This document shows, one piece after another, positions 8,612 through 35,220 of a stretch of DNA of 64,000 nt. This DNA comes from Planctomycetota bacterium (GTDB taxonomy: Bacteria; Planctomycetota; MHYJ01; WSZJ01), in assembly GCA_038060895.1 (NCBI GenBank), contig JBBTCT010000006.1, positions 7,403-71,402 on the forward strand. Reading direction: 5' to 3'. The number at the start of each line of letters is the position of its first letter. The stretch's first letter is position 1. Both the position numbers and the translations under genes were made by a program. The notes beneath the pieces were generated by a model that saw only the letters and a program-made list of their open reading frames with translations, was not told the origin of the DNA and made no database searches.

Positions 8612-10024
8612 GTGAACTCCGCAGAGTCGGTCTACCTGTTTCGTCACGCGCTCCTGCGCGATGCGGCGTATCAACTCCAGCTCCCCGGCGACCGCGCGCG
8701 CCTGCATGCTTTGGCTTTTGCGGCGATTGAGGAGCTGGCGGGCGGGCGGGCGCCGGCGATGGCGCCGCTTGACGCGCACGAACAGCCGCGATTTCAGCCC
8801 CACTCGACCGACGCCTTCGCGATGGAGCTCGCTGAACACGCCGCCGCGGCCGGCCCTTCGGCCGTCCCCCTGGATTCCGAACGGCACTATCTGTGCCGTG
8901 CGGCACGGATCGCGGAGAAAACGCACGCGAACGAGGCCTGCGAAGTGCTCTGGTTGAAAGTCGCGGCGCTGGTGGACGGCGTGGCAAGGGGCGTGGCCTT
9001 GAGCAGGGCCGCAATCGTCGCCCACCATCTGGGCCAGACAAGCCGCGCCGAGCCGCTCTTCCGGCGGGCCCTCGACGAGCATCGTCGAGCGGGAAGCCGG
9101 TGGTTCGAGGGAATGGCGTTGACCGACATCGCCAACGTGCTCGAGGAAACCGGCGACCTCGCCGGGGCGGAGCGGATTTACGACGAAGCGCTGGCCATTC
9201 ACCGCGAAACCGGAAACCGGCGTAACGAGGGCATCGCGTGGAGCAACCTGTCGAGCCTCTATGCCCATACAGGACGATCCGCAGCAGCGGAAGAAGCGCT
9301 GGCGAAGGCGCTTGTCCTCTTTCGCGAGCGCGGCGATCGACGCCTGGAAGGATCCGCGCTGAACAAGCTCAGTGTCCGCTACCTGGCGACCGGGAAAGCA
9401 GACCAGGCGGAGCGGGCAAGCGAGGAATCGCTGGCCATCCTGCGCGACCTCGGCGAGCGACGGCTGGAGGGCATCGCTCTCGCAAATCTCTCCCAGGTGC
9501 ATCGGGAGAAGGGAATGGCGCAGGAAGCCGAGCGCGCGAATCTCGAATCGCTGCGGATTCTCCGGGAAGTGGGGGCCCGCCCGGCCCAGGGCGGACCACT
9601 GGACAACCTGGTTGTTCTCTACCTCGACGCGGGCCGTCTCAGGGAAGCCGAGGAGGCGTGCCGGGCATCGCTGGCGATCCACGCGGAGGCCGGCAATCGC
9701 CGCTCCGAGGGGATCGCCCTGGGAAATCTCGGCGAGATTCAAAGGCAGAACGGGCGTCTCGACGAGGCCCAGGAGTCGTACCGTCGCTGCATTTCCAGAC
9801 TCCGCCAGGCCGGCGACGTCAAGTTCCTGGGCGAGAACCTGTGCGATTTCGCCCTCGTGCTCGTCGAATCGGGTCGCGAGGCCGACGCGCGAAAGACGTG
9901 GCACGAGGGCGCTTCCCTCCTTCGGGACCACGGCGAGTCCGCCCTGCTGCAGCAGAAAATCCCGCACATGCACTCGGCGTGCCGAAACGCCGGGACCGCT
10001 CTCTTCGATGAGGCCGCCCCGTGA
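8612..10024 (+). CDS. Stand-alone TPR protein, FRHALLRDAAY family, copy 1 (alternative start ATG 8585)
   Basis: Starts VNSAESVYLFRHALLRDAAYQLQLPGDRARLH; ~40-aa ALAIHRExGNRRxEGIALxNL repeats. Confidence 0.88.
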   Translation: MNSAESVYLFRHALLRDAAYQLQLPGDRARLHALAFAAIEELAGGRAPAMAPLDAHEQPRFQPHSTDAFAMELAEHAAAAGPSAVPLDSERHYLCRAARIAEKTHANEACEVLWLKVAALVDGVARGVALSRAAIVAHHLGQTSRAEPLFRRALDEHRRAGSRWFEGMALTDIANVLEETGDLAGAERIYDEALAIHRETGNRRNEGIAWSNLSSLYAHTGRSAAAEEALAKALVLFRERGDRRLEGSALNKLSVRYLATGKADQAERASEESLAILRDLGERRLEGIALANLSQVHREKGMAQEAERANLESLRILREVGARPAQGGPLDNLVVLYLDAGRLREAEEACRASLAIHAEAGNRRSEGIALGNLGEIQRQNGRLDEAQESYRRCISRLRQAGDVKFLGENLCDFALVLVESGREADARKTWHEGASLLRDHGESALLQQKIPHMHSACRNAGTALFDEAAP

Positions 10025-11784
10025 ACGCCGAATCGGCATATCTCTTTCGCCACGCCCTCCTGCGCGACGCGGCCTACCAGCTCCAGCTCCCCGGCGACCG
10101 CGCGCGGCTGCACGGGCTGGCGTTCGCGGCGATCGAGAATGTGTTCGGTGGCCGCCCTCCGGAGCCCGGCCTCTCCACCGACGGATCGCTGAAGGAGTTC
10201 CGGCCGTATGCCGGCGATGCGTTCGCACGCGAACTTGCAGGGCACGCCGGTGCGGCGGCCCGCGACGACCTGGGGAGCGCGCAGCGGCTCTACCTGCGCC
10301 GCGCGGCCGAGCACGCGGAGAGACAGAACCGCCATGAAGAAGCGGTCGAGCTCTGGAAGGACGGCGCAACCTTCGAGCGCGGAAAGCGCCGGGCGGACTC
10401 CCTCTACCGGGCGGGATGCGCGGCTGCGACACGGGGAGACTTGCAGGGGGCCGAAGCGCTGCTCCACTCCGCGCGTTCGATCTTCTGCCGGGCGCAGGAC
10501 CGGCTGGGCGACGCGTGGGTCTCCGTCAAGCGAAGCGACGTCTCGCGGGACGCCGGGCGGCTCCGCCAGGCCGAGCTTCGGATCCGCAGAGCGGTCGCGC
10601 TGCTCCACCGCCTCGGGTCGCGCCTCCGCGAGGGCGGGGCCCTGAACCAGTGGGGAACCCTCCTTATGCGCATGGGCCGGATCGAATCGGCCGAACGCAC
10701 CTACGCGAAGTCCCTGGCGCTCTTCCGCCGGCTCCGCCATCCGCACGAGGGAATCACGCTGGGAAACCTGTCCATTCTCTACCGGCAAACAGGGCGCGTG
10801 CAGCAGGCGGAACGCTCCATGGAGCAGGCACTCTCCCTCCACCGCAAGGCCGGAGACCGGCGTTTCGAGGGCATCACCCTGGGAAATCGTGGAATTCTCT
10901 TCGCCGAAACCGGCCGGGCCGCGGAGGCGGAACGTTCCTACGGGGAAGCGCTGATCGCCCTTCGCGAGATCGGGAACCGGAAGGCCGAAGGGGACGTCCT
11001 GTCAAATCTCGCCCGTCTCTTCGCCGACACGGCGCGCCCTGCGGAAGCCGAAAGGACCTACGAGCAGGCACTCGCGATGCTCCGGGAGCTGAACGACCGG
11101 CGTGCCGAAGGACTCACGCTGGGGAACCTGGGCAGCCTCTTCTTCGAAACAGGGCGAGGCGAAGCGGCGGAGCGCGCTTTCGAGCAGGCGCTGGCCCTCC
11201 TTCGGGAGGTGGGCGACCGGCGCGGCGAAGGCGTCGCCCTGGGAAATCTTGCCGAGCTTTACCAGGGCACCGGACGCCTCGAGCTCGCGGAGCGCACCTA
11301 CGAACAAGCCCTCGCTCTCCAACGGGACGTACGAAACCGCCGCGGAGAAGCCATCGCGCTGGCGAATCTCGCGAGCCTGTACCAGGAGACCCGCCGCCTC
11401 GAGCCCGCCGAACGCCTCTACCACGAGGCCCTCGCGGCCGGCCGGTCGGTCGGAGACCGGCGCTTTGAGAGTTTCGTCCTCGGAAAGACCGCCGGCCTCC
11501 TCCGGGAAACGCAACGTCCGCAGGAAGCGGAGCGACTCTACGCCGAAGCGCTCCTCCTTGACCGGCAGCTCGGGGACCGGAGCCTGGAGGGCGGCCACCT
11601 GTGCGGGCGGGCGCTGTGCCTGGTGAGTCTCGGAGGACTCTCCGAGGCCGCGGAAGGCTGGAGCGCGGGCGCGGCCCTGCTGCGCAGCCTCGGGGAAAAC
11701 AAGGAGATGGATCGCCAGGTCGCCGCGATGCGGGCCGCGTGCGCGGGAGCGGGGGTGGCGGAGTTGGAAGCAGGCGGCCCGTGA
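10021..11784 (+). CDS. Stand-alone TPR protein, FRHALLRDAAY family, copy 2
   Basis: Same N-terminal motif; GTGA overlap with copy 1; 40-aa TPR repeats. Confidence 0.9.
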   Translation: MNAESAYLFRHALLRDAAYQLQLPGDRARLHGLAFAAIENVFGGRPPEPGLSTDGSLKEFRPYAGDAFARELAGHAGAAARDDLGSAQRLYLRRAAEHAERQNRHEEAVELWKDGATFERGKRRADSLYRAGCAAATRGDLQGAEALLHSARSIFCRAQDRLGDAWVSVKRSDVSRDAGRLRQAELRIRRAVALLHRLGSRLREGGALNQWGTLLMRMGRIESAERTYAKSLALFRRLRHPHEGITLGNLSILYRQTGRVQQAERSMEQALSLHRKAGDRRFEGITLGNRGILFAETGRAAEAERSYGEALIALREIGNRKAEGDVLSNLARLFADTARPAEAERTYEQALAMLRELNDRRAEGLTLGNLGSLFFETGRGEAAERAFEQALALLREVGDRRGEGVALGNLAELYQGTGRLELAERTYEQALALQRDVRNRRGEAIALANLASLYQETRRLEPAERLYHEALAAGRSVGDRRFESFVLGKTAGLLRETQRPQEAERLYAEALLLDRQLGDRSLEGGHLCGRALCLVSLGGLSEAAEGWSAGAALLRSLGENKEMDRQVAAMRAACAGAGVAELEAGGP

Positions 11785-13214
11785 ACGCAGAGAGCGCTTA
11801 CGTCTTCCGCCACGCGCTCCTGCGCGATGCCGCCTATCAGCTGCAGCTCCCCGGCGACCGCGCGCAGCTGCACGCGCTGGCGTTCGCGATCGTCGAGGAC
11901 CATTGCGGCGGGCGCGCGCCGGAGCCGCCGCCGCTCGGCGCCTCCGGAAAGTCCGTCTGGCAGCCGCACCGGTCGGATGTCTTTGCAGAAGAGCTTGCGC
12001 TTCATGCCGCAACCTCGCAGAACGCCGGGTTGCGCGCCGCCCTGAAGCTCTACCTTCGCCGGGCCGCAGAGCACTCCGACCGGCAATGCCGAGCCGACGC
12101 TTCCGAGCGCCTGTGGAAGAGTCATGCGGAGCTTGCTTCCGGGATCGAAGAGGGCGAATCCTGGCGGCGGGCCGCGACGGCGGCGCGGGACGCCGGCCGG
12201 CGCAAGAGTGCCGAGCCGCTGAGCGAGCGGGCGCTCGCGATTTTCCGTGAAGCCGGCGACCGGCGGCTCGAGGGCATCGCGCAGGCCGACAGGGCCGTGC
12301 TGCACCACCAGGCCGCGCAGATCCCGGAGGCCGAGCAGCGCTTCCAGGAGGCTCTCGCGATCCACCGGGACGTCGGCGACCGGCCGTCCGAGGGCGCGGC
12401 GCTGAACAATCTCGCCAGCATCTGCGCTGAAACCGGGCGCGTCCGGGAGGCCGAGCGGCATCAGGAGCAGGCGCTGGCCATTCACCGTGAAGTGGGGGAC
12501 CGGCGTGCGGAAGGGATCGCGCTGGGCAACCTGGCGCTTGTGCGCAAGGAGACCGGCCGGGTCGAAGAGGCGGAGCGGGGCTATGAAGCGGCCCGAGCCG
12601 TCCATCGCGAAGTCGGCAACCGGAGGCACGAAGGGATCGTCCTGGGCAACCTGGCCAATCTCTACAAGGAGACCCGCCGGATGTCGCAGGCGGAAGTCAC
12701 GTACGAGCAGGCGCTGGCGATCCATCGCGAAGTCGGCGACCGCCGTTTCGAGGGCATCGCGCTCGGCAACCTGGCCGGCCTTTACCAGATCACCGGCCGG
12801 AAACCGCAGGCCGAAACGGCCTACGAGCACGCGCTGGCCATCCACCGCGAAATCGGCAACCGGCGTTCCGAGGGAGTCGCGCTGGGGAACCTGGCCGGCC
12901 TCTACCAGGACACGGGGCGGGTCGAGCCGGCCGAGCGGAACTTCACGGAGGCCATCGCCATCCACCGCGAAGTCCGCAACCGCCGCCTCGAGGGCGCGCA
13001 CCTGTGCGGCTACGCGGTGCTCCTCGTGGCCCGCGGCCGGATCGAGCCGGCGCGCGAAGCCTGGCAACAGGGCGCGATGATCCTGCGGGAGCTCGGCGAC
13101 CTGGGGTCGCTTCAGGCCCATGCGGCGGAGCTGCAGAAGGCCTGCGTCAGGGCCGGCGTCCCGCATTTCGATGCGCCCGGACGGGACTCGCAAGCGCCTC
13201 CGTCCCCGCACTGA
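11781..13214 (+). CDS. Stand-alone TPR protein, FRHALLRDAAY family, copy 3
   Basis: GTG 11781 overlaps the stop of copy 2; VNAESAYVFRHALLRDAAY; TPR repeats. Confidence 0.9.
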   Translation: MNAESAYVFRHALLRDAAYQLQLPGDRAQLHALAFAIVEDHCGGRAPEPPPLGASGKSVWQPHRSDVFAEELALHAATSQNAGLRAALKLYLRRAAEHSDRQCRADASERLWKSHAELASGIEEGESWRRAATAARDAGRRKSAEPLSERALAIFREAGDRRLEGIAQADRAVLHHQAAQIPEAEQRFQEALAIHRDVGDRPSEGAALNNLASICAETGRVREAERHQEQALAIHREVGDRRAEGIALGNLALVRKETGRVEEAERGYEAARAVHREVGNRRHEGIVLGNLANLYKETRRMSQAEVTYEQALAIHREVGDRRFEGIALGNLAGLYQITGRKPQAETAYEHALAIHREIGNRRSEGVALGNLAGLYQDTGRVEPAERNFTEAIAIHREVRNRRLEGAHLCGYAVLLVARGRIEPAREAWQQGAMILRELGDLGSLQAHAAELQKACVRAGVPHFDAPGRDSQAPPSPH

Positions 13215-13323
13215 GGATTCGGAGCAAGGGGGGCGGAAATCCCAATGAAGCGATGCTGAACAGCGGGATCCACTATTAAGAGTTCAGCATCAAAGTCTTA
13301 ATAGCAATCGGGTTCATGGGCAG

Positions 13324-13800: not shown

Positions 13801-13804
13801 ATCT

Positions 13805-15211: not shown

Positions 15212-15233
15212 GGCTCGTCCCCTAGGCTTTAGA

Positions 15234-23745: not shown

Positions 23746-23981
23746 GCTCGACGGCCCTGAATCGGCAGAAAGAGGAAAGGCCGGTTCCCTCGAGCCGGCA
23801 GTGCTGAACGTAGAAACACGGCCTGCGGACCGCAAGGCATTTTCGTGGAGGTTCGAATCGCGTCGAGGAGCGGAGGATTTGGCGCGAATTCGTGCCTTTA
23901 CTTATCCCTCAGTAAATAGAATCCCGCGTTGGTTGAATTCGAGGGCGCGTCCTCCGCCCGGCGTGTCGGGGACGACCGGCG

Positions 23982-26900: not shown

Positions 26901-27170
26901 GACAACCTTCGGGGCCTGCCGGCCAGCTTTCTGATTGCGGGCGTCCAGACTTTGGTTGGCACTTTGTGGCGACCGGACGTTGAGGTGTCGCGATACTTCT
27001 TCGTCGCTTTCTACAGTCGCCTCAGACGGGGCGCCTCGCGGCTCGAAGCGTTTTCCGCCGCGCAGCGCCGGACGCGCAAGCGATTTCCGCCGATGAGGGC
27101 ATGGGGACCCTTCTATATGATTGGCGACTGCGACACGGTTGCGGGGTTCGAAAACAAAAACGGGGGGTAG
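23982..27170 (+). CDS. CHAT-domain (caspase-like) protease with helical N-terminal region; true start probably downstream (~24258-24378)
   Basis: IVPHGPLHYIPF, HVSTHG (catalytic His), LSACET (catalytic Cys), AGVQTLVGTLW, WGPFYMIG. Confidence 0.88.
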   Translation: MLRPAIRAEHLSAQVHFGGQSVERSQEPLHPQRDGNSKSPIGLQPIELLWLSQERHLVSLAVAQHQAAELGARGTVSPSYLRHCSRSALGAAMHGGQRRQGIARQRITRSAAEALAESPEKTGLLQEIVLDWMEIVHLALTEIADGRLYREAMSDGEALLAAARGGPSQRLVAQTLFRLALLNLDPFIVGRPSSNYEASIRHWEAGFAEEFAEELRGLPEADWKMPSPAEALGRAVKYLREMIDHAEGDAMVRGLKALIQALGWHSLVSQADLNQVEIGDLCRRALARLDPSRHPVQWLEVLGALPNHGEVNLLEEADRVLRRSPDQLVHDVGPVVAIDAIRSGIRLLMGGHAARALDLLRSAKPLVERHGSDADRSAWLEDELTIATLAIGPDMVTPIAPYGVQVAEEELRRRADEGSWDRRTLCAGLLRLARISGQTDEERAGLALLEEAVRLAPAFVESLLQPINLLRAILHRNAAVNEWKAGNWADATAEYGTALRGYVDLRLVEKSHDCLVWIEDLARIAAPEVAVQVVRQVAPLALKLEALIGERAILSLQRLCERTIAGSMKGTADLETVNFLFQVAKGRRFAHVLSRGTRYRVNEDAEAQAMLKAIQNAPQGVSVAPVDEERLLTVHADPRPLHGGGTDEQRLSNLQHAFDSRVSALSFRGDIGEETAYLSCAEIQRCLDDRTVLVSLYSGSSDPGETTVYATAFTRERVRLYRTVQAPAAEESRPGGADPGAGRGAVARLVHRARAALSLQVPRGEIASAAARLVLADCFRALFGKLGKDLQGLSNVGKDHLCIVPHGPLHYIPFHLLGIKEPLASKWKVSYLPNLHLLAGLRNRSALGAKRHDWITSIGLGFPGTNPHDLPCIPGSAREASEVAAIFGKGPLLEKHATRKATFAALSDSRFVHVSTHGRHNYEAPALHLVYMAADSDSDGRLFAFEVPTLDLRRLEVLTLSACETALGRFDLGDNLRGLPASFLIAGVQTLVGTLWRPDVEVSRYFFVAFYSRLRRGASRLEAFSAAQRRTRKRFPPMRAWGPFYMIGDCDTVAGFENKNGG

Positions 27171-27172
27171 CC

Positions 27173-27352
27173 ATGGCAGGAATCGATGTGGGCGGGATGG
27201 TGAAGATCGTCAAGGTAGGGGCCGCCGAACAGCACCTCCTGAACCGCGTCGGAAGGCTGCTGGTGATCGCGGACTCCGTCAACTGCCTGCTGGTCTTCCA
27301 GGACGGCACCACGGCCCAGGTGAAGATCGACCAGCTTCAATCGGTGCGCTGA
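27173..27352 (+). CDS. 59-aa beta-rich hypothetical protein (SH3/KOW-like)
   Basis: G-run SD; starts 2 nt after the CHAT stop and ends 10 nt before the caspase start; GC3-rich codons; VGGMVKIV...VGRLLVI...LLVFQDGTTAQVKIDQL. Confidence 0.75.
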   Translation: MAGIDVGGMVKIVKVGAAEQHLLNRVGRLLVIADSVNCLLVFQDGTTAQVKIDQLQSVR

Positions 27353-27362
27353 CTCCCGAGCC

Positions 27363-29126
27363 ATGAACAAGACACGCGCTGCCGTGCTCATCGGCGTCAG
27401 GAAAAGCGGGTCGCTCCAAACCCTCCATACGGCGGCCGAGAACGCTCGTGCGATGGCCGCCTGGGCCGGGTCGCAGCAATTCAAGCACGTTCACGTCATC
27501 ACCGACGAAGCGGGGAGGGTCGATGTCGCGCGGATCAAGAAAACGATCACTGAGCTCGTGGATTTGAGAACAATTGAGCAGTTAATCGTCTACTTCTCCG
27601 GACACGGCGTGAATCGAAACCGGAGTGAATACTGGCTCTTGACCGGGGCGCCCAGGGATTCCCAGGAAGCGGTGAATGTTGAGGGAAGCGTCCATCTTGC
27701 GCGAAGGGTGGGAATTCCTCACGTCGTGTTTATCTCGGACGCGTGCCGAACCGCTCCCGAAGGCATCCAGGCGGATTCCGTCACAGGTAGCGACATTTTC
27801 CCGAATGAGGACATCGGAGGTTCCAACCACGCCGTCGATCAGTTCTTCGCTACGCAGCTTGGACGGCCCGCCTACGAGTTCAAGAACACCGCCGAGGCGG
27901 TCGCGGCTTACGCTCCTTATACGGACGAATTGATCAAGGCTCTCAGCGGAGATTACGAGCCGCCCCTCGAACATCACAAGGAGGGCCGGAGGGCCTTCGG
28001 ACTGGTGCGGCCGCATCCGCTCAAACGCCACCTGCATTCCGTCGTCACCAGGAAGGTGCATGCCGTGGCGCGACGGGCGCAAGCGCCCGACGCCCTGATT
28101 ACGTCCGACGAATCTGCCTGGCTGGCGAAAATCCTGTTCGAACACCCGGGACACCCGACCAAAGGGGACTCGCGCAAACCGCGCCGCCATCCATTCGTCG
28201 AATCGCCTCAGTCGAGGAAGTTCCCCGATCTGGGAAGTTTGTCGCGCGCTTTCCTCACCGCGGCATTGCGCGCAGCGGCGCCCGCCTTCTTCCCGCAGGT
28301 GCCGACGGAACTAGTCACTGCCGCCGTGGAGCTGGGACGATCGGTGGCCCGAATGTCCAAGTCGTTCGGCAGCGCAGAATTCCGGACCGGCTGCGGATTC
28401 AAGGTGCGTGGGAACGGATTTGCGGACGCAACGAGTCTGGGTGGCGCTCGAGTCGAGCGATCGTCCGAGAACCTGGTTCAGATCCTCGACGTGGCGTGGC
28501 CCGCTTCAAACGTGCTGATCACATTCGGTGACGGCACCGGAACGATGCTGCCCGCGATTCCCGAATTCATCGGCGCTCTCACGTTTGAAGGAAATGAACT
28601 GGTCGATGTCGCATACGAACCGTCGGCCGGATCTTCGCGGTGGAAAGCGTTTCAGAAACGGCGAGATGAACTCCGGCGCCTGAGGGCGACGATCGCAGAG
28701 TCGGCACGACTGGGGGTGTTCAGGGTCGAAGAACCTGGAGCTCGGAAACTCATCAAGAAGCTGCGTTATGGCGAGAGCATCGATCCCGGCCTGGCTCTAT
28801 ACGCCGCATATGCGTGCCGCGACCTTCCCGGCCCTGATCGTATTCTGGACTTTGAAGTGACCCTCCTGGGAGATCTGGGGTTGAGCTTTTTCGATTTGTG
28901 GCTGATTGGCGGCGAACTCGGAAACATGGACCTCGCCAACTCCTCGGTCTTTCCGTTCTTTCCGATGCTCTCCCAAGGGTGGGCGCTTCTCGACGCGCTG
29001 CGAGTTAAGCTTCCTGAGTCTCTGTCGACTCTTCAAGGTCACCTCCGGCAGTCTCTCTGGACGCTTTTTGACCCCGCGGGAGTTTCGGCAATCCGGAAAG
29101 CAATTCCAGAACTGGAGCGGCGATGA
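27363..29126 (+). CDS. Caspase-family (peptidase C14) protein with uncharacterised C-terminal domain
   Basis: AAVLIGV start, VYFSGHG (His), ISDACR (Cys), FFATQLGRPAYE. Confidence 0.88.
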   Translation: MNKTRAAVLIGVRKSGSLQTLHTAAENARAMAAWAGSQQFKHVHVITDEAGRVDVARIKKTITELVDLRTIEQLIVYFSGHGVNRNRSEYWLLTGAPRDSQEAVNVEGSVHLARRVGIPHVVFISDACRTAPEGIQADSVTGSDIFPNEDIGGSNHAVDQFFATQLGRPAYEFKNTAEAVAAYAPYTDELIKALSGDYEPPLEHHKEGRRAFGLVRPHPLKRHLHSVVTRKVHAVARRAQAPDALITSDESAWLAKILFEHPGHPTKGDSRKPRRHPFVESPQSRKFPDLGSLSRAFLTAALRAAAPAFFPQVPTELVTAAVELGRSVARMSKSFGSAEFRTGCGFKVRGNGFADATSLGGARVERSSENLVQILDVAWPASNVLITFGDGTGTMLPAIPEFIGALTFEGNELVDVAYEPSAGSSRWKAFQKRRDELRRLRATIAESARLGVFRVEEPGARKLIKKLRYGESIDPGLALYAAYACRDLPGPDRILDFEVTLLGDLGLSFFDLWLIGGELGNMDLANSSVFPFFPMLSQGWALLDALRVKLPESLSTLQGHLRQSLWTLFDPAGVSAIRKAIPELERR

Positions 29127-30028
29127 ACCGTCGACTCGTGTTGATTCATGGGCGTTCGCAGGAGCACAAAAGCGCCGAGAAGCTCAAGAGGTCCTGGGTT
29201 GCGGCACTCAAACGAGGCTTGGCGAAATCAAACCTCGAGCTGCCCATCCCTGAGCGCGAGGTCCGCTTCCCCTACTATGGCGACGCCTTGCATGACCTCG
29301 CTTCGGGAAAGGAAGATGGGGTCGCGAAGGTCATCACTAAGGGCGCCACGCGCGACCACGAGTTCAGCGGTTTCGCCAAGGAAATTCTCCTCGAAGTCTG
29401 CGCCAAGGCCGGCATCACCGATGCGGACATCGAGGCAGCAATGACGGGGGAGAAAGTCATCGAGATGGGCATACTCAACTGGAAGTGGGTCCGTGCAATC
29501 TTGAGGACGATCGATCGACTAGTTCCGTTGGCTAGCGCCGCAAGCATCGCCCTGTTCACGAACGACGTTTACAAGTACCTGAGGAATCCCGGAATCCTGA
29601 ATCAGATCGAAATGCGCGTGCGCGCCGCATTCGAGCCAGGAATCCCCACAATTGTCGTCGCGCACTCGCTCGGCTCCGTGGTCGCTTACAACCTCTTGCG
29701 GACGGAAGGAACCTCGCTAGCCTGGCGAATTCCAGTGTTCGTCACTGTCGGCGCGCCGCTGGCAGTTTCCCGAATCAAGGCGCTGCTTGCACCGAATCAT
29801 CATCCTGAGTGCATCGACAAGTGGTTCAACGCGTTGGATGCCCAGGATGTTGTCGCGCTTCATCCTCTTACGAAGAGGCACTTCCCGATTGATCCTGAAA
29901 TCGAGAACAAGACAGACGTTCAGAATCCGTCGCCGAATCACCACGGGATCGAGGGCTACCTGGCCGACCGCGACGTTGCGAAGAAGATCCATGACGCGCT
30001 GATCGCCTCAGCGGTTCCCCGCGAATAG
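29123..30028 (+). CDS. Alpha/beta hydrolase (lipase-like)
   Basis: LVLIHGR, PYYGD, VAHSLGS nucleophile, VTVGAPL, DVVAL, HHGIEGYL; ATGA overlap with the caspase gene. Confidence 0.88.
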   Translation: MNRRLVLIHGRSQEHKSAEKLKRSWVAALKRGLAKSNLELPIPEREVRFPYYGDALHDLASGKEDGVAKVITKGATRDHEFSGFAKEILLEVCAKAGITDADIEAAMTGEKVIEMGILNWKWVRAILRTIDRLVPLASAASIALFTNDVYKYLRNPGILNQIEMRVRAAFEPGIPTIVVAHSLGSVVAYNLLRTEGTSLAWRIPVFVTVGAPLAVSRIKALLAPNHHPECIDKWFNALDAQDVVALHPLTKRHFPIDPEIENKTDVQNPSPNHHGIEGYLADRDVAKKIHDALIASAVPRE

Positions 30029-30136
30029 CTGCTCCCAAGCGGCGTCCGGTGAATGCCCAGCCTTTCGAAATGATTTCATCCCGTTCTGGCGCTTCGCGCT
30101 TCGGCTGGGTTGCGCGCGCCGCTTATCATCTCGCGC

Positions 30137-31801
30137 GTGCAGTCAGAACTTGCGTACTTGTTCCGCCACGCCCTCCTCCGCGACGCCGCGTACCAGATGC
30201 AGCTTCCCGGCGATCGCGCGCGGCTGCATGCTCAGGCTGTGGAGGCCATCGAAGCGATGGCCGGGGGGCGAGGACCGGCGGGGCGGCGGCTTCGGGCGGG
30301 TGGGGACGACGCGGTGCGGCCGCATCCGGCGGACGTTTTCGCGGCCGAGATTGCGGAGCATGCGGGGCTGGCGCTGGCGACGGAGGGGGCCCGTCTGCCG
30401 GAATCCGCGGCGCGATTCCTCGAATCGGCCCGAAGGCACTACCTGCGTCGCGCCGCGGAGTCGCTGGAGCGCGACTACCGATTCTCTGCGGCCGGCGCGG
30501 CCTGGGTGGCCTATGCGGGACTCACGGGCGGACGGGAGCGGGCGGAGGCGTTTCGACGGGGCGGACAGTCCGCGCATCGCGCCGATCAGCTCGGGAGCGC
30601 CGTGCCCCTGCTCCGCCGGGCCATTGCGCTTCATCGCGCCGCCGGGGACGCGCGCGCCGAAGGATTCGCGCGCGATAATCTCGCGACGGTCTTCCGCGAC
30701 GGCGACCGCAGGCAGGACGCCGAGCGGCTCTATCGGCAGGCGCTGTCGCTTCAGAGACTCTCCGGCAGCCGCCGCCTGCAGGGGCTGACTCTCTCGAACT
30801 ACGCCGGACTGCTCTACATGACGGGCCGCGCCGCCCGGGCCTCGCGCCTCTGCACCCGGGCGCTTACCCTGCTGCGCCGGGCCGGCGACCGCCACGGGGT
30901 GCGACGAACTCTGGGCAACCAGGCGGTCCTGTTAGAGGCAGCCGGCCGTGTCGCGGAGGCCGAGCGCACGTTCCGGCAGGCACGCCGGCTCCACCGCCTC
31001 GCCGGCGACCGGCGCGCCGAGGGCCTCGTGCTGGGCAACCTGGCGATGCTCTGGCAGCAGACCGGCCGGTTCCGGCAGGCCAAGCGCGCGCACGAAGCGG
31101 CGATTGCCCTGCATCGCGAGGCCGGCAACCGTCGCGCCGAGGGGGTGGCGCTCGGCAACCTCGCGGGCCTCCACAACCAGGTCGGACGGTACGAGCAGGC
31201 CGAGCGGATGTTCGGGGAGGCGCTGGCGGTCCATCGCGAAGTCGACAACCGCCGCGGGGAGGGCAGTCTTCTCGGGGACCTCGCGGGCGTTTATCGGAAC
31301 ACCGGACGGATCGAGCTGGCCGGACGCACGCTTCAGGATGCCCTCGCCGTCCACCGCGCCTGCGGCAATCGCCGCGGCGAAGCGCTGGTCCTCGGGCACG
31401 TCGCGAAGTTTCTCGAAGAGACGGGGCGGCACCTGGAAGCGGAGCGGAGTTTCGGGCAGGCGCTGGCGCTTCTGCGCAAGTTCGGCGACCCGCGCTCGCT
31501 CGGCATCGCTCTGGGGGATCTGGCCCTCCTCTACGAAAAAACGAGCCGCCGCGCCCGCGCCGCCCGCACGAACGCGCAAGCCCTCGCGTTCGACCGCCGC
31601 GTGGGCAACCGGACCTTTGAAGGCGTCCACCTCTGCCTGGCCGCGCGCCTCCTCGTCGCTTCCGGGCAGCTCCAGCGGGCGCGCCGGACCTGGCGCGAAG
31701 CCTCCCGCCTTCTGCGGGGGGCCGGAGACACCGCCGAGCTGGCCGTTCAGTCCGCCGCCATGCGGGACGCCTGCGGCCGCGCAGGACAGAGCCGCGTATG
31801 A
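30137..31801 (+). CDS. Stand-alone TPR protein, FRHALLRDAAY family, copy 4
   Basis: GTG 30137 with TATCAT 7 nt upstream; VQSELAYLFRHALLRDAAYQMQLPGDRARLH; TPR repeats. Confidence 0.88.
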   Translation: MQSELAYLFRHALLRDAAYQMQLPGDRARLHAQAVEAIEAMAGGRGPAGRRLRAGGDDAVRPHPADVFAAEIAEHAGLALATEGARLPESAARFLESARRHYLRRAAESLERDYRFSAAGAAWVAYAGLTGGRERAEAFRRGGQSAHRADQLGSAVPLLRRAIALHRAAGDARAEGFARDNLATVFRDGDRRQDAERLYRQALSLQRLSGSRRLQGLTLSNYAGLLYMTGRAARASRLCTRALTLLRRAGDRHGVRRTLGNQAVLLEAAGRVAEAERTFRQARRLHRLAGDRRAEGLVLGNLAMLWQQTGRFRQAKRAHEAAIALHREAGNRRAEGVALGNLAGLHNQVGRYEQAERMFGEALAVHREVDNRRGEGSLLGDLAGVYRNTGRIELAGRTLQDALAVHRACGNRRGEALVLGHVAKFLEETGRHLEAERSFGQALALLRKFGDPRSLGIALGDLALLYEKTSRRARAARTNAQALAFDRRVGNRTFEGVHLCLAARLLVASGQLQRARRTWREASRLLRGAGDTAELAVQSAAMRDACGRAGQSRV

Positions 31802-33315
31802 ATTCCGCAGAAACAGCCTACCTGTTCCGACATGCGTTGCTCCGCGACGCCGCCTACCAGCTCCAGCTCCCCGGCGACCGCTCGCGGCTGCACGGACTGT
31901 CTCTGGAGATCATGGAGACGATCTGCGGCGGGGCTGCGCCGGAGCCGCCCACCCTGGTATCAGGCGAGGCCGTCCCGCGGCATGCGACGGATCCGTTCGC
32001 GGAGGAGCTCGCCGGGCACGCTCGGCAGGCCGGCGAAACCGCGCGCTCCGGAGCGCTGAAGACTTATGCGCGCCGGGCCGCGGAGTTCGCGGATAAGTCT
32101 TTCCAGGTCGGGAAGATGCAGAGCCTCTGGCTGGATCTCGCGGAACTTCTCGAAGGCTCCGAAAAGGCGGAAGCCCTGCGCCAGAGTTCCCTCGCCGCCC
32201 AGACCGCGGGAAACGAGCCGCTCGCGCTGTCGCTCTGCGAGCAGGCGCTGGCCCTGCATCGCGAAGCGGGCAACCGTCGATTCGAAGGGGTCACGCTTCT
32301 CGGACTGGCGCACATCGGCCGCGATGGCGACAGGGGCGACCAGTTCGGAGATTCGTGCGAACGGGCGCTGGCGCTGCTTCGCGACTCCGGCGACCGGCGA
32401 TTCGAAGCGATCGCGCTCGGTCAGCTGGCGGCCTGGCACGGGGCCAAGGGACGAATCGGCGAATCCGAAAGCCTGCTGGAGAGATCCCTCGCGATTCACC
32501 GGGAACTGGGCAACCACTTCAACGAGGGGGTCATGCTGGGCACCCTGGGAAGCCTTCTCTTTTCCACCGGGCGCTTCGGGGAAGCCGAGCGCGCCTTTGA
32601 ATCGGCCCTGGTTCGTTGCAGGGAGGCGGGCGACGTGAGGGCCGAGAGCGTCGTGCTGGGCAACTTCGCCGGCGTCTTCCTCCAGACCGGGCGGGAAAAA
32701 CAGGCGGAGCTCACGATGGAGCGCGCGCTCGCGATTCACCGCTCCTGCGGAAACCTCCGTTCGGAAGGAATCGTGCTGGGAAACCGGTCGCGAGTCCACC
32801 GGCTGGCAGGCCGCTGGGACCAGGCCGAGTCCGATCTCGAGCAGGCGCTTCGGCTCCACCGCGAAGTCGGCAACAGGCGCTCCGAGGCCTACGCGCTCCT
32901 GAACCTGGCAAGCCTGTGCGGGGAACGGGACCAGCTGGAACGCGCCCTCCAGCTCTGCGCGGAAGCGCTCTCAATATTCCGCGAACGCGGCGAGCTGCCG
33001 ATGGTGGGCGGAGCCGTGGGAGTCCAGGCCGTTCTATGCCACCAGCGCGGCGACCTCGAAGAAGCCGGACGGCTCTTCCTGCAGGCCCTCGGCATCCTCA
33101 AGCAGGTCCGGGACGCCCACTCAGAAGCGGCGCTTCAGTGCGACTACGCCGTCTATCTCCTGGACTGCGGACGGGTGGAGGAAGCACGAAAGGCGTGGGC
33201 GGAAGGAAGTTCGCTGTTTCGGAAACTCGGCGACATGCGCGAACTCGAGCGGAAGACCCTCTGCGTTCGCGAAGCCTGCGGGAAGAACGGTATCCCGTCA
33301 ATCGAGTCAGTTTGA
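31798..33315 (+). CDS. Stand-alone TPR protein, FRHALLRDAAY family, copy 5
   Basis: ATGA overlap with copy 4; MNSAETAYLFRHALLRDAAY; TPR repeats. Confidence 0.9.
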   Translation: MNSAETAYLFRHALLRDAAYQLQLPGDRSRLHGLSLEIMETICGGAAPEPPTLVSGEAVPRHATDPFAEELAGHARQAGETARSGALKTYARRAAEFADKSFQVGKMQSLWLDLAELLEGSEKAEALRQSSLAAQTAGNEPLALSLCEQALALHREAGNRRFEGVTLLGLAHIGRDGDRGDQFGDSCERALALLRDSGDRRFEAIALGQLAAWHGAKGRIGESESLLERSLAIHRELGNHFNEGVMLGTLGSLLFSTGRFGEAERAFESALVRCREAGDVRAESVVLGNFAGVFLQTGREKQAELTMERALAIHRSCGNLRSEGIVLGNRSRVHRLAGRWDQAESDLEQALRLHREVGNRRSEAYALLNLASLCGERDQLERALQLCAEALSIFRERGELPMVGGAVGVQAVLCHQRGDLEEAGRLFLQALGILKQVRDAHSEAALQCDYAVYLLDCGRVEEARKAWAEGSSLFRKLGDMRELERKTLCVREACGKNGIPSIESV

Positions 33316-33336
33316 ATCAGCAGGCCGTGTCAGGAT

Positions 33337-33579
33337 TCACTTCTTCGCCTTCAAAAACCACCCCTTCGCCCCCTCGTCCGTCGTGAAGAACTTCAGCAGC
33401 ATGTCGGCGACTTTCTTGCGGCCGGAGTCGGACGGGTGCGTGCCGTCCTCGCCCTTGTACTTGTCTTCCGCCGTCATCTCGGTCAGCGGCTTGAGCCCGA
33501 GGTGGTCCTTCGGCGTCTGCTGGGCGAAAACCGACGAAGAGAGCAGGAGGGCGTAAACGGGGAACAAGGCGCGGCGCAT
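33337..33579 (-). pseudogene. 80-aa remnant of an exported SGNH-like protein with an in-frame internal deletion
   Basis: AAGGAG SD and signal peptide; GLKPLTEM...YKGEDG joined directly to a DGTHPS...RKKVADMLLKFF C-terminal SGNH-type DxxHP block. Confidence 0.6.
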
Positions 33580-33637
33580 CGCTGAACTCTCCTTGAGGGG
33601 CCGCCGCGAGTCTACGATAGCGGCCTCGTGACTGCTC

Positions 33638-33665
33638 CCTTCGACTCGCTTCGCTCGCTCAGGGC
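33638..33665. repeat. REP-like palindrome CCCTTCGACT...CGCTCAGGG
   Basis: Same ends as the element at 41437-41490. Confidence 0.65.
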
Positions 33666-33675
33666 AGAGCCCCGT

Positions 33676-35220
33676 ATGACATCCGCTGAAACGGTTTACC
33701 TTTTTCGGCACGCGCTTCTGCGCGACGCCGCCTATCAGCTGCAGCTCCCGCGCGATCGCGCGCGGCTGCACGGGCTGGCGCTGGAGGTGATGGAACAGAT
33801 CTGCGGTGGCCGGCCACCGGTTCCGCCGCCACTTGAAGACGCCGGTCGCGAACGTTTCGCGCCGCACCCGTCGGACGCGTTCGCGGAAGCGCTCGCCGAG
33901 CATGCCCAAAGGGCGCCGGAGGAAATGGATTTCCGCGGCGTTTCCGCGGCGTCTCTCCGGAAGCTCTACCTGCGCCGCGCCGCGGAGCACGCCGCGAAGT
34001 TCTTCCAGGGCGAAGCGTCCGAGCGCCTGTGGCGGCAGCACGCGGCGCTGGCGTCCGGCGTCGAGAAAGGTGAGTCGTTTCTCCGCGCCGCCGATGTGGC
34101 GCGCGAGCGCGGGGACCGGAAGCGAGCCCAGGCCGACATCCAGGAGGCGATGACCCTCGCTCCGGGGGCCAGCCAGAGGTTCGTGGCGCACATGCTCGGC
34201 GCGCAGGCCGCCCTCTACCTCGAAGTCGGCTGGTTTACGAAAGCGGAGTCGTTCTACACGCGCTCTTTGAAGATCCAGCGCGCGGCCGGCGATCGCAGGG
34301 AGGAAGGCGCCACTCTCGCGAATCTCGGCGTGGTCGCGCGCCAGCAGGGGCGGGCGCAGGAGGCGGAGCGCCTTCTGGGGGAGGCTCTTTCCATCCAGCG
34401 CGAAATCGGAAACCGGGAGGCAGAGTGCACCCTGCTGGGAAACCTCGGGGCGTACTACGCGCAGATGGGCCGCACCGAAGAGGCCGCGCAGGCGATCGAT
34501 TCGGCCCTGGCAAGCGCCCGAAGCCGCGGCGACCGCCGCGCCGAGGGAGTCTCGCTCGGCCTCCTGGCGGCGCTTCACGGCCAGCGCGGCAACCTCAAGG
34601 AAGCCGCATCCGCCTGCCGGCAGGCCATCGCGTTTGACATCGAAGTCGGCTCCCGGCCCGGCCAGGGGATCGCGCTTCAGAACCTCGCCACGGTCGAATA
34701 CCTCGAAGGAAATCTCGAGCGCGCGAAGGCCACCTACCTGCAGGCCCTGGAAATCCACCGCGAAGTCGGCAATCGCGCAAGCGAGGGAACGACGCTGGGC
34801 AATCTCTCCCAGCTCCTGAAATCCCTGGGGCTGCTGGACGACGCGGTCCGATGCTGCGAAGAAGCGCTCGCCATTTCCCGTCAGGTCGGGGACCGGCGTC
34901 ATGAGGGAATCTCCCTCGGAAACCTGGCGGGCCTCCACCAGAAGTCCGGGAAACTCGACGACGCCGAGCGGCTCTTCCGGATGGCCATCGAACTGCATCG
35001 CAAGAACAGCAATCGCGGCTTCGAGGGCAGCCACCTCTGCGACCTCGCGTGCCTCTTCGTCGCCCGGGGACGTGAGGCGGAAGCGCGGGAGGCGTGGATC
35101 CAGGGCCGGCTACTTCTGCGCCAGGCGGGAACCCCGGTGGAAAGGGAGCGCACCCAGGCCGCCATGCGCGCCGGGTGCGGCGAAGCCGGCGTTTCGCCGC
35201 TCGAGGAGCCCCCGGAGTGA
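33676..35220 (+). CDS. Stand-alone TPR protein, FRHALLRDAAY family, copy 6
   Basis: MTSAETVYLFRHALLRDAAYQLQLPRDRARLH; TPR repeats. Confidence 0.9.
   Translation: MTSAETVYLFRHALLRDAAYQLQLPRDRARLHGLALEVMEQICGGRPPVPPPLEDAGRERFAPHPSDAFAEALAEHAQRAPEEMDFRGVSAASLRKLYLRRAAEHAAKFFQGEASERLWRQHAALASGVEKGESFLRAADVARERGDRKRAQADIQEAMTLAPGASQRFVAHMLGAQAALYLEVGWFTKAESFYTRSLKIQRAAGDRREEGATLANLGVVARQQGRAQEAERLLGEALSIQREIGNREAECTLLGNLGAYYAQMGRTEEAAQAIDSALASARSRGDRRAEGVSLGLLAALHGQRGNLKEAASACRQAIAFDIEVGSRPGQGIALQNLATVEYLEGNLERAKATYLQALEIHREVGNRASEGTTLGNLSQLLKSLGLLDDAVRCCEEALAISRQVGDRRHEGISLGNLAGLHQKSGKLDDAERLFRMAIELHRKNSNRGFEGSHLCDLACLFVARGREAEAREAWIQGRLLLRQAGTPVERERTQAAMRAGCGEAGVSPLEEPPE

What the first reader, a model, noticed from the sequence alone, without database searches (positions are those of the whole stretch)
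8612..35220. Six stand-alone TPR genes that start at the STAND winged-helix His motif: candidate split-NLR sensor repertoire
Seen: genes at 8612, 10021, 11781, 30137, 31798 and 33676 all begin within ~8 residues of YxFRHALLRDAAYQLQLPGDRARLH. They share GGxxP, PHxxDxFAxELAxHA and YLxRAA blocks and a conserved C-cap (HLC...A...W...LLR...MR.AC). Between these lie different numbers of divergent 40-aa TPRs (470-587 aa in total). Three junctions are coupled by GTGA/ATGA overlaps. DNA differences in the N-terminal block are mostly synonymous, so the peptide appears to be under selection. Known: YxFRHxLxRDAAY is normally internal in AAA_16/adenylate-cyclase/LuxR-type STAND proteins, at the end of the winged helix, where the His corresponds to the nucleotide-contacting MHD motif of NB-ARC NLRs and precedes the arm and TPR sensor. 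No P-loop NTPase gene is in the window. Inference, three options: (a) trans-acting interchangeable sensor subunits that complete a STAND core encoded elsewhere; (b) decoys or inhibitors of full-length STANDs; (c) cassettes that recombine through the conserved block into a master gene, as orphan modules do in polymorphic toxin loci.
Basis: partly seen in the sequence, partly recalled or inferred. Interest (0 to 1): 0.85.

Follow-up and report, generated by a model that had tools for sequence, protein, structure and literature searches.

The report
Split STAND receptor: many sensors, one core
These six genes belong to a family of about 60 stand-alone repeat proteins that look like detached sensor halves of a STAND (NLR-like) signalling ATPase, and the matching half, which makes cyclic nucleotides, is a single conserved gene elsewhere in the genome.

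Summary
Six TPR genes (470-587 aa) start 8-9 codons before FRHALLRDAAY, and three junctions overlap as GTGA or ATGA. They are 6 of 60 such loci in this 5.4-Mb Planctomycetota MAG.

In the genome's roughly 15 full-length cyclase-AAA_16-TPR STANDs, the same motif is internal.

The new result is a matching partner. One conserved single-copy gene (G000:C15:117788-120265, 825 aa) encodes two cyclase domains, AAA_16, a helical domain and a winged helix. It stops in the winged-helix hairpin, exactly where the TPR proteins begin.

- An unsplit 1103-aa relative in another lineage joins both halves at that point.
- In 301 genomes of the phylum, the family occurs in 15 and the tail-less core in 14 of those 15.
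- The N-block shows peptide-level selection (pN 0.12 against 0.41-0.45 elsewhere; pS about 0.57 throughout).
- A complex model scores 0.73, with a best control of 0.00.

Gene fission is well supported. Docking of interchangeable sensors onto one core is the best reading (about 0.6) but is untested. The recombination-cassette and pseudogene readings are disfavoured.

The parts
8612..10024 (+). TPR sensor gene 1 (470 aa). It has a GTG start 9 codons before the F of FRH, and its stop overlaps the start of gene 2 (GTGA).
10021..11784 (+). TPR sensor gene 2 (587 aa, P0002). It has a GTG start 8 codons before F and is coupled to gene 3 by a GTGA overlap.
11781..13214 (+). TPR sensor gene 3 (477 aa). 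The GTG at 11781 is the start; the longer open frame from 11601 is an out-of-frame read of the end of gene 2.
30124..30129 (+). TATCAT, a -10-like hexamer 13 nt before the start codon of gene 4. It suggests a leaderless or near-leaderless transcript.
   Evidence: A TAnnnT hexamer at -12/-13 occurs in 22 of 54 family starts, against a genome rate of 0.001 per position.
30137..31801 (+). TPR sensor gene 4 (554 aa). It has a GTG start 8 codons before F and is coupled to gene 5 by an ATGA overlap.
31798..33315 (+). TPR sensor gene 5 (505 aa, P0005), with an ATG start. This protein was modelled alone and with the core.
33676..35220 (+). TPR sensor gene 6 (514 aa), with an ATG start. The 360-nt spacer upstream still reads ..APFDSL.., which looks like a relic of a lost paralog's C-terminus.

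Best explanation
The six genes are the sensor halves of a naturally split STAND (NLR-like) ATPase.

An ancestral protein had two cyclase domains, an AAA_16 nucleotide-binding domain, a helical domain, a winged helix, an arm and a TPR sensor. It was cut at the tip of the winged-helix beta-hairpin.

The N-terminal half survives as one conserved single-copy core gene outside the window (G000:C15:117788-120265, minus strand, 825 aa). The C-terminal half carries the last hairpin strand (AYLFR), the His that clamps ADP in other STANDs, the following helix, the arm and the TPR sensor. This half became an independent gene and multiplied to 13-76 copies per genome.

Inferred mechanism: each TPR protein docks its near-invariant N-block onto the core's incomplete winged helix by strand complementation, which supplies the His and the autoinhibitory arm in trans. 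A ligand bound in the variable TPR superhelix then opens the nucleotide-binding module, ATP replaces ADP, the core multimerises and its cyclase pair makes a cyclic nucleotide. In this way many diversifying sensors would feed one output module.

What is shown: the fission, the exact complementarity of the two ends, the co-occurrence, the peptide-level selection and the predicted interface.

What is inferred: binding in the cell, the His-ADP contact, ligand gating and the cyclase output.
For: 1. Exact complementarity. P0127 ends ...LLLESQREGVLIPA plus about 9 variable residues. Full-length paralogs continue from there into x-x-FRHALLRDAAY. All 7 orthologs found in the genus end at the same place.

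2. The core is a real, conserved gene.
- It gives one match in each of 7 of 8 genomes of the genus, at 72-86% identity.
- The 44 closest database clusters are 60-100% identical. 42 are 773-808 aa and two are shorter (628 and 651 aa), both labelled partial by their source. All carry only Guanylate_cyc and AAA_16.
- The next relative is 34% identical, 1330 aa long, and has TPRs.
- Walker A (GEPGLGKT) is intact.

3. Rosetta stone. G059 encodes an unsplit 1103-aa protein with Guanylate_cyc, AAA_16 and TPR_12.
- Its residues 1-763 align to core residues 24-814 (38% identity, E 2e-154).
- Its residues 772 onward (AEAAYLFRHALMRDAAYHLHLPSARACLH) align to P0005 from residue 4.
- G059 has no stand-alone family hit.

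4. Phyletic pattern. In one sample of 301 Planctomycetota genomes the family is in 15. A single-copy core at 67% identity or more is in 14 of those 15, and in none of the 286 others; G059 has only the unsplit 42% relative.

5. Tree. The first 143 aa of 54 family members group with the three double-cyclase full-length STANDs and apart from 13 single-cyclase STANDs of the same genome (SH-aLRT 100, quick tree).

6. Shared-partner signature. The N-terminal 40 aa show pairwise identity of 0.71-0.79, against 0.34-0.45 for most of the rest. The N-block has pN 0.121 against 0.41-0.45 elsewhere, at equal pS.

7. Complex model of core 430-825 with P0005 1-140.
- ipSAE was 0.73 (runs 0.74, 0.72, 0.73), and the best of 3 controls was 0.00.
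- In the tool's calibration this mark was reached by 58 of 80 solved complexes and 2 of 110 mismatched pairs.
- The runs agree in at least 83% of contacts, and partner pLDDT is at least 84.
- Core residues 811-813 touch TPR residues 8, 10 and 11, as hairpin pairing would require.

8. In PH0952 the hairpin tip (374-376) is followed by H382, which binds the ADP phosphates, and then by the arm (394-496) (PMC6468293, passages).

9. The genes are independent units.
- 50 of 54 starts lie 8-9 codons before F.
- 22 of 54 have TAnnnT at -12/-13 (P about 5e-45).

10. Synteny. The core lies 1494 bp from a family member in G000, with a similar order in G002.
Against: - No experiment shows binding. The complex pass may reflect likeness to solved single-chain STANDs, because these are halves of a split gene, as the tool itself warns.
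- The modelled interface lists no P-loop residue, so the His-nucleotide contact is not modelled.
- In the AF2 monomer, residues 4-22 form one helix rather than a strand, at pLDDT 72-78.
- The ratio is extreme: one core for about 50 intact sensors.
- Core-TPR synteny is not kept in two genomes of the second lineage, G191 and G156.
- G006 has the family but no core hit; that genome is 85% complete.
- The co-occurrence rests on only two lineages, so it gives about two independent observations.
- Four of 15 full-length STANDs also sit next to family members (P 0.026), which suggests other or additional partners.
- The family-specific conserved C-cap has no explained role.
- Expression rests only on metatranscriptome contigs from one study, which could contain DNA.
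- The tree is the quick version, because the careful search did not finish.
Confidence: 0.6

Rival explanations
1. The stand-alone TPR proteins act mainly on the roughly 15 full-length single-cyclase STANDs, as decoys, inhibitors or exchangeable sensors that compete with the cis arm and sensor.
For: - Four of 15 full-length cyclase-STANDs lie within 3.5 kb of a family member, against 7.9% expected (binomial P 0.026).
- On C22 the STAND stop and the TPR start overlap as TGATG.
- On C21 the order is STAND, Ser/Thr kinase, TPR, with gaps of 8 and 3 nt.
- The motif is nearly the same in both classes.
Against: - The family's N-block and arm group with the double-cyclase lineage, not with these single-cyclase STANDs (SH-aLRT 100, quick tree).
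- Full-length STANDs already carry the strand, the His and the arm in cis.
- In the sample of 30 relatives, none of the 23 genomes from other genera had the family, whereas the tail-less core tracks it in 14 of 15 genomes.
- The adjacency enrichment is modest.
Confidence: 0.15
2. After the fission the TPR proteins became autonomous scaffolds or adaptors, for example for the very large Ser/Thr kinase complement. On this reading the N-block is conserved for a reason unrelated to the core, such as capping the solenoid or binding another common partner.
For: - Ser/Thr kinase genes are the commonest recurring neighbours: 19 ORFs in the 30 family regions. Two of them flank the window's arrays.
- One database homolog, P0014, carries a C-terminal APH-type kinase-like domain.
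- The AF2 monomer folds confidently alone (pLDDT 94.6).
- The 1:50 ratio and the lack of synteny with the core in the second lineage fit this reading.
Against: - The genome has about 125 kinase genes (132 Pkinase matches). About 13 are therefore expected in the 579 kb of family regions, so the enrichment is only about 1.3-fold.
- This reading does not explain why a tail-less core ending at the exact complementary residue co-occurs with the family.
- It does not explain why the most conserved part is the winged-helix strand-His-helix segment.
- It does not explain the predicted interface.
Confidence: 0.15
3. The genes are silent cassettes that recombine through the conserved 5' block into a master STAND gene.
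For: - The genes form tandem arrays with a conserved 5' block.
- Deletion variants that join the N-block directly to a late repeat or to the C-tail (C9:57852, 142 aa; C2:191159, 134 aa) show recombination among repeats.
Against: - Synonymous divergence in the block (pS 0.574) is as saturated as elsewhere (0.58-0.64), so no DNA-level homogenisation or conserved recombination site is seen.
- The genes have start codons, -10-like hexamers or translational coupling, full-length ORFs and a conserved C-cap.
- The tail-less core is conserved as tail-less in 7 genomes of the genus and 11 of the second lineage.
- No protein of 1029-2935 aa matched the N-terminal 140 aa at E 1e-5, which is weak evidence.
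Confidence: 0.03
4. The genes are 5'-truncated pseudogene remnants of full-length STANDs.
For: About 12 of the 60 loci are short or lack an obvious start codon.
Against: - No NTPase remnant lies upstream in the window, and the upstream extensions of the open frames are R/P-rich junk.
- 48 intact ORFs of 400 aa or more exist in this genome.
- The N-block is under strong purifying selection.
- The family is kept in two lineages and in more than 250 database clusters, with the same start.
Confidence: 0.02

Closest known systems
Single-chain STAND ATPases with a TPR sensor (MalT of E. coli; PH0952 of Pyrococcus horikoshii, PDB 6MFV)
   Same: The domain order is the same: nucleotide-binding domain, helical domain, winged helix, arm, TPR sensor. 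A conserved His after the winged-helix hairpin contacts ADP, and the arm is the main autoinhibitory element (PMC6468293, passages). PH0952 is also a weak sequence hit of P0002 (6mfv, E 5e-5).
   Different: Here the chain is cut at the hairpin tip. The strand, the His, the arm and the sensor are a separate gene present in 13-76 copies, while the nucleotide-binding core is a single copy. Nothing comparable turned up in the listings of four literature searches or in the passages read.
Cyclase-AAA_16-TPR STANDs, including the genome's own roughly 15 copies and the TOMM kinase/cyclase fusion family TIGR03903
   Same: They share the Guanylate_cyc and AAA_16 domains, the FRHALLRDAAY motif and TPR_12 repeats. 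P0002 aligns colinearly with residues 572-1061 of one of them.
   Different: Those proteins are unsplit and carry one cyclase domain. The core here has two cyclase-homology domains and no sensor. The family's N-block and arm belong to the double-cyclase lineage.
Unsplit double-cyclase STANDs (G059 protein at L031:2768-6079, minus strand; database proteins P0172 and P0173)
   Same: These are the closest relatives of both halves. They are 31-42% identical to the core and carry AAYHLHLP or AAYEMQL motif variants also seen in the family.
   Different: They are one polypeptide, and no expanded stand-alone family is present in G059. They also lack the family's conserved C-cap, judged from the sequences.
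Sensor/helper NLR networks of plants (recalled from general knowledge, not from a call)
   Same: The logic is many-to-one: a diversifying sensor repertoire signals through a few conserved partners.
   Different: In plants both sensors and helpers are complete NLRs, each with its own NB-ARC domain. Here the sensors have no NTPase at all and would complete one domain of the partner.
Antiviral STANDs (Avs) with TPR-like sensors that recognise phage proteins
   Same: They combine a STAND with a repeat sensor and an effector. The repertoire here turns over fast, as expected of conflict genes, and protease genes typical of conflict systems lie between the arrays.
   Different: PADLOC gave only generic hits: TPR for the sensors and PycC-type cyclase homology for the core. 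No defence function was tested, and Avs proteins are single chains.

Membership tests
STAND NTPase (taken as a two-gene system) | P-loop nucleotide-binding domain with Walker A and Walker B | tested here: met
   The core P0127 matches AAA_16 (43.7 bits, cut-off 32.6). Walker A is GEPGLGKT, and the Walker B region VVIEVEDSHWLD can be read. G466, K467 and D603 are invariant in 44 sequences. None of this lies in the window genes themselves.
STAND NTPase (taken as a two-gene system) | Winged-helix domain ending in a hairpin followed by a conserved His that contacts the nucleotide | tested here: inconclusive
   The sequence homology is clear and the domain is split. The first hairpin strand is in the core (EGVLIPA), and the second strand plus the His (YLFRH) is at the N-terminus of the TPR proteins. 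The model pairs core 811-813 with TPR 8, 10 and 11. The His-ADP contact is inferred from PH0952 H382 and was neither modelled nor measured.
STAND NTPase (taken as a two-gene system) | Arm plus repeat sensor C-terminal to the nucleotide-binding module | tested here: met
   The TPR proteins have a helical arm region (residues about 35-140) followed by TPR_12 repeats. They are colinear with the C-half of a full-length STAND.
STAND NTPase (taken as a two-gene system) | All modules on one polypeptide | tested here: not met
   The core ends before the motif in all 7 orthologs examined in the genus, including this genome's own, and its 44 closest database clusters carry no TPR domain. The TPR genes have their own starts.
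STAND NTPase (taken as a two-gene system) | Nucleotide-dependent oligomerisation on ligand binding | not testable with these tools
   This needs biochemistry.
TPR_12 / LGN-Pins-type TPR proteins | Tandem helical hairpins of about 40 aa forming a solenoid | tested here: met
   Pfam TPR_12 matches at E 1e-36 to 1e-55 for all six. The best PDB sequence hits are GPSM2/LGN and Pins (E 1e-24). The AF2 model is an all-helical solenoid (pLDDT 94.6).
Class III nucleotidyl cyclase (the output of the core) | Guanylate_cyc catalytic domain with metal-binding Asp residues and transition-state Asn/Arg | tested here: inconclusive
   There are two cyclase-homology stretches. Domain 1 keeps invariant D53 and D103. 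Domain 2 keeps GDAVNTSARLM, with R367 invariant and N363 nearly invariant. Reading this as a C1/C2-like pair with a single active site is my inference from recalled cyclase motifs. Activity and substrate were not tested.
Recombination cassettes of polymorphic-toxin type | Promoterless, often start-less modules sharing a DNA-level conserved recombination block with a master gene | tested here: not met
   Block pS is 0.574, about the same as the rest of the gene. 54 of 60 loci have a start codon, and 22 of 54 have a -10-like hexamer. No master gene with the block was found.
Known anti-phage defence systems (PADLOC-DB 2.0) | A match to a system-specific model | tested here: not met
   Only generic TPR (85 bits) and PycC cyclase-domain (61 bits) matches were found.

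The most novel reading that the evidence does not exclude
This would be a modular innate-receptor system. A single NOD-cyclase engine is completed in trans by any one of dozens of fast-evolving plug-in sensors. Each sensor delivers the missing winged-helix strand, the ADP-clamping His and the autoinhibitory arm. It would be a natural split NLR, with one nucleotide switch shared by a whole receptor repertoire and cyclic-nucleotide output, possibly feeding the protease effectors encoded between the arrays.
Probability: 0.45. Interest if true: 0.9.

Novelty: new variant of a known kind. Interest (0 to 1): 0.82.

Why it matters
All characterised STAND and NLR switches I know of keep the nucleotide-binding module, the ADP-sensing His, the autoinhibitory arm and the sensor on one chain. 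Each new specificity therefore costs a whole new ATPase.

Here nature appears to have cut the chain inside the winged helix and amplified only the sensor half. If the halves reassemble, three things follow:

- It shows that the closed state of a STAND can be built from two proteins.
- It gives a natural, defined split point for engineering modular NLR-type sensors.
- It offers a tractable system (one core, many sensors, an easily assayed cyclase output) for asking how ligand binding in a repeat sensor is transmitted to the nucleotide switch.

It also explains a family that takes up about 1.7% of these genomes and is annotated only as 'tetratricopeptide repeat protein'. In addition, it points to leaderless expression in an uncultured Planctomycetota lineage.

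Tried and rejected
Long upstream open frames. Five family members have stop-to-stop frames of 720-1091 aa, which at first looked like full-length forms. The upstream parts are R/P-rich out-of-frame reads of neighbouring genes and are not NTPases.

Kinase linkage. Ser/Thr kinases are the commonest neighbours. With about 125 kinase genes in the genome, the enrichment is only about 1.3-fold, so I did not build on it.

Other truncated cores. Among 34 AAA_16 or cyclase ORFs inspected, only P0127 ends before the motif. C45 is cut by a contig end, and the C40 ORF has only a C-terminal cyclase.

Search for long fused forms. The N-terminal 140 aa found no protein of 1029-2935 aa at E 1e-5. The tool itself calls this weak evidence.

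Literature. Four searches and passages read in four papers gave no description of a STAND split in the winged helix or of this family. Supplements are closed and were not seen. The supplementary tables of PMC7159879 and of preprint 10.64898/2026.01.04.697583 could list split forms.

Expression. Metatranscriptome contigs from one aquifer study (X1-X3, one sample) lie with 0 differences on parts of 30109-31665 and 33527-34505. They are contigs, may contain DNA, and show no ends. One contig starts 28 nt before the proposed start of gene 4. This neither supports nor refutes a leaderless start.

Protein atlas. The ORF at 29123-30028 is an alpha/beta hydrolase, and the C-part of the caspase protein has no named relatives. 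Neither is an NTPase.

PADLOC gave only generic hits.

The careful tree search did not finish in 300 s, so only the quick tree is reported. One full-length STAND (C35:85219) was dropped from the tree because my motif pattern missed it, and C33:50558 was not included.

I did not use the search of protein representatives. Its 150-row output would have been filled by the family itself and could not have counted internal against N-terminal hits.

Full report
**Observation**

The starts at 8612, 10021, 11781, 30137, 31798 and 33676 are GTG or ATG. The products are 470, 587, 477, 554, 505 and 514 aa. Each begins x(2-3)AExxYLFRHALLRDAAYQ[LM]QLP.DR..LH. Three junctions are 4-nt overlaps reading GTGA, GTGA and ATGA.

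All six match TPR_12 strongly.

NCBIfam's kinase/cyclase STAND model TIGR03903 aligns residues 5-41 of gene 2 to model positions 829-865 of 1267. The motif is therefore internal in classical STANDs.

**Scale**

The window lies on contig C6 of a 5.4-Mb, 47-contig, 86.5%-complete genome.

- The first 110 aa of gene 2 hit 71 places in it.
- 60 of these carry the family signature (AAYQLQL-type).
- 54 of the 60 have a start codon just upstream, and 50 of those 54 have it exactly 8 or 9 codons before the F.
- 48 are intact ORFs of 400 aa or more.
- Some of the remaining loci are decayed copies. They include deletion variants that join the N-block directly to a late repeat or to the C-tail.

The family sits in arrays of 2-8 genes. 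Homologs in public data (251 at E 1e-3 or better; the best 120 were listed) are 328-798 aa. Where named, the sources call them 'tetratricopeptide repeat protein' or 'hypothetical protein' from uncultured Planctomycetota; one (P0014) is named as an APH-family kinase protein. The seven I read begin at or near the same motif, and none of the 120 listed carries an NTPase domain.

**The genes are independent units**

Among the 54 starts, a TAnnnT hexamer begins at -12 in 18 and at -13 in 4. The genome-wide rate is 0.001 per position, giving a binomial P of about 5e-45. A -10 box ending 6-7 nt before the start codon is the layout of leaderless transcripts; that rule is recalled, not tested here.

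Window gene 4 has TATCAT at 30124-30129. Other members are translationally coupled to the preceding paralog.

No NTPase remnant lies upstream of the window genes. The best tblastn E-value is 0.26, and there are no AAA_16 or cyclase hits on C6. The long upstream open frames of some paralogs are out-of-frame junk.

**Relation to STANDs**

About 15 proteins of this genome, 1031-1687 aa long, have Guanylate_cyc, AAA_16 and TPR domains. They carry F[RQKHA]HALLRDAAY about 335-345 residues after the start of AAA_16. Gene 2 aligns colinearly with residues 572-1061 of one of them.

In the solved TPR-STAND PH0952, the winged helix spans 317-393, the hairpin tip is at 374-376, H382 binds the ADP phosphates and the arm is 394-496 (PMC6468293, passages). 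By homology, each stand-alone protein starts with:

- the second hairpin strand;
- the nucleotide-contacting His;
- the last winged-helix helix;
- the arm;
- the sensor.

**The missing half**

Among 34 AAA_16 or cyclase ORFs inspected, one ends before the motif. This is P0127 (G000:C15:117788-120265, minus strand, 825 aa). It has two cyclase-homology domains, AAA_16 with an intact Walker A, the helical domain and most of the winged helix. It stops at ...LLLESQREGVLIPA plus 9 residues. Full-length paralogs go on from there to xxFRHALLRDAAY.

P0127 is not a broken gene.

- 7 of 8 genomes of the genus hold exactly one copy, at 72-86% identity, and all end at the same point.
- The 44 closest public clusters are 60-100% identical. 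42 are 773-808 aa and two are shorter (628 and 651 aa), both labelled partial by their source. All carry only Guanylate_cyc and AAA_16.
- The next relative drops to 34% identity, is 1330 aa long and has TPRs.

**Rosetta stone**

A genome of another family in the phylum (G059) encodes an unsplit 1103-aa protein with cyclase, AAA_16 and TPR_12 domains.

- Its residues 1-763 align to core residues 24-814 (38% identity, E 2e-154), ending RERVILP against REGVLIP.
- Eight residues later, from 772, AEAAYLFRHALMRDAAYHLHLPSARACLH aligns to gene 5 from residue 4.

The break therefore maps to the hairpin turn. G059 has no stand-alone family member.

A quick maximum-likelihood tree of the first 143 aa puts all 54 family rows with the three double-cyclase full-length proteins. 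They separate from 13 single-cyclase STANDs of the same genome (SH-aLRT 100). The careful search did not finish.

**Co-occurrence**

In a sample of 30 relatives, the family is in all 8 genomes of the genus (own genome included; 13-76 matches each) and in none of the 23 genomes from other genera.

In one sample of 301 genomes of the phylum, the family is in 15. Four of these belong to the window's own family and 11 to a second, distant family comprising four genera. A single-copy tail-less core is in 14 of these 15. The exception is an 85%-complete MAG. Apart from the unsplit relative in G059, no other genome has it.

Near-complete genomes hold 13-28 copies. This amounts to about two independent lineages, not fifteen.

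**Selection**

Among 48 intact paralogs, the first 40 residues have pairwise identity of 0.71-0.79, against 0.34-0.45 for most of the rest. Nei-Gojobori counts give:

| Region | pS | pN |
|---|---|---|
| N-block | 0.574 | 0.121 |
| Five other regions | 0.58-0.64 | 0.41-0.45 |

The block is therefore held at the peptide level and is not homogenised at the DNA level. This fits one shared protein partner and argues against recombination cassettes.

The repertoire turns over. Gene 2 has a probable ortholog in only one of seven congeners (65-71% identity, on two contigs). In the other six, the best hits are 41-51%, the same as within-genome paralogs (42-53%). The core, by contrast, is 72-86% identical across the genus.

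**Models**

Gene 5 alone folds as a confident all-helical solenoid (pLDDT 94.6). Its first 20 residues are less confident (72-78) and are drawn as a helix.

Core 430-825 with gene 5 residues 1-140 gave the following:

- ipSAE of 0.73 (0.74, 0.72, 0.73), against 0.00 for the best of three controls.
- In the tool's calibration this mark was reached by 58 of 80 solved complexes and 2 of 110 mismatched pairs.
- The runs agree in at least 83% of contacts, and partner pLDDT is at least 84.
- The interface joins core residues 751-792 and 810-816 to TPR residues 4-23 and 28-42.
- Core residues 811-813 lie against TPR residues 8, 10 and 11, as a reconstituted hairpin would.

The tool warns that halves of a split gene can pass through likeness to solved single-chain structures. 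That warning applies here. No P-loop contact is listed.

**Interpretation**

Fission of a double-cyclase STAND at the winged-helix hairpin, followed by amplification of the sensor half, is well supported. I put it at about 0.9.

It is less certain, about 0.6, that the halves still work together, with many interchangeable sensors completing one nucleotide-binding cyclase core. This rests on the exact complementarity, the co-occurrence, the pattern of selection and the model.

Points against this reading, or still open:

- The ratio is 1 core to about 50 sensors.
- Synteny with the core is lost in the second lineage.
- The conserved C-cap is unexplained.
- Four of 15 full-length STANDs have adjacent family members, against 7.9% expected (P 0.026). 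One pair has an overlapping stop and start, and one locus reads STAND-kinase-TPR. The sensors may therefore also, or instead, act on full-length STANDs.
- Expression evidence is weak.

**Context**

Between the two arrays lie two S8 subtilases, a CHAT protease, and a caspase-like protein coupled to an alpha/beta hydrolase. Kaur et al. describe that last pairing as typical of bacterial conflict systems (PMC7159879, passages). Ser/Thr kinases flank both arrays, but the genome has about 125 of them.

PADLOC recognises no known defence system. A role in conflict or immunity is plausible from the turnover and the neighbourhood, but it is untested.

**Limits**

- Supplements were not available.
- Only one complex job was allowed.

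Noticed in passing
G000:C15:117788-120265 (minus strand; outside the window; loci L017, L018): The tail-less core has two cyclase-homology domains. The first keeps two invariant Asp residues (D53, D103). The second keeps GDAVNTSARLM. This looks like a C1/C2-type pseudo-heterodimer with one active site on a single chain.
   Followed up: partly
window 16619-30028: An island of protease-type genes lies between the two TPR arrays. It holds two S8 subtilases (1849 and 556 aa, minus strand), a CHAT protein (1062 aa), and a caspase-like protein of the EACC1-associated type (587 aa). The caspase-like gene is coupled by an ATGA overlap to a 301-aa alpha/beta hydrolase (atlas score 0.97, TM 0.91). The caspase-plus-hydrolase pairing is described for bacterial conflict systems in PMC7159879.
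   Followed up: partly
54 family starts genome-wide, e.g. window 30124-30129: A TAnnnT hexamer sits at -12/-13 from the start codon in 22 of 54 genes, which suggests leaderless mRNAs in this lineage. Four other members (on C5, C24 and C35) share a different conserved upstream sequence, CTCAA(T/C)ACTCCCCACTCCCG, directly before the ATG.
   Followed up: partly
whole genome G000: There are about 125 Ser/Thr protein kinase genes (132 Pkinase matches) in 5.4 Mb. Two are in the window: 1159-6159 (with FG-GAP, PQQ and PEGA domains) and 35279-38077 (with an FGE-sulfatase domain).
   Followed up: partly
window 33316-33675: The spacer before gene 6 still reads ..APFDSLRSLRAEPR in frame with the gene. 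It resembles the family's C-terminal AGVxPFD tail and the junction before gene 5, so it is probably a relic of a deleted upstream paralog. A near-identical spacer precedes C22:350011.
   Followed up: no
G000:C9:57852-58280 and C2:190755-191159: These are short family members (142 and 134 aa). In them the N-block or arm is joined directly to the C-tail or to a late repeat. They look like products of recombination between TPR units.
   Followed up: no
database protein P0014 (798 aa): This family member starts at the motif and carries a C-terminal APH-type (aminoglycoside phosphotransferase-like) kinase domain after the TPRs.
   Followed up: no
G000:C5:120354-123095, C34:38247-40919, C34:86008-88662, C2:177857-180496: A recurring neighbour of family members is a protein of about 890 aa with N-terminal TPRs and a C-terminal DUF1570 / Peptidase_MA-like domain. 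One of them overlaps the stop of a family gene.
   Followed up: partly
window 45783-47753 (-), 54758-56689 (+), 57622-58992 (+), 61926-63485 (-): Other genes in the window are an unrelated classical 34-aa TPR protein, a heparinase II/III-like protein, a SAM methyltransferase, and a flotillin / Band 7 protein. Nine further ORFs have no Pfam match.
   Followed up: no
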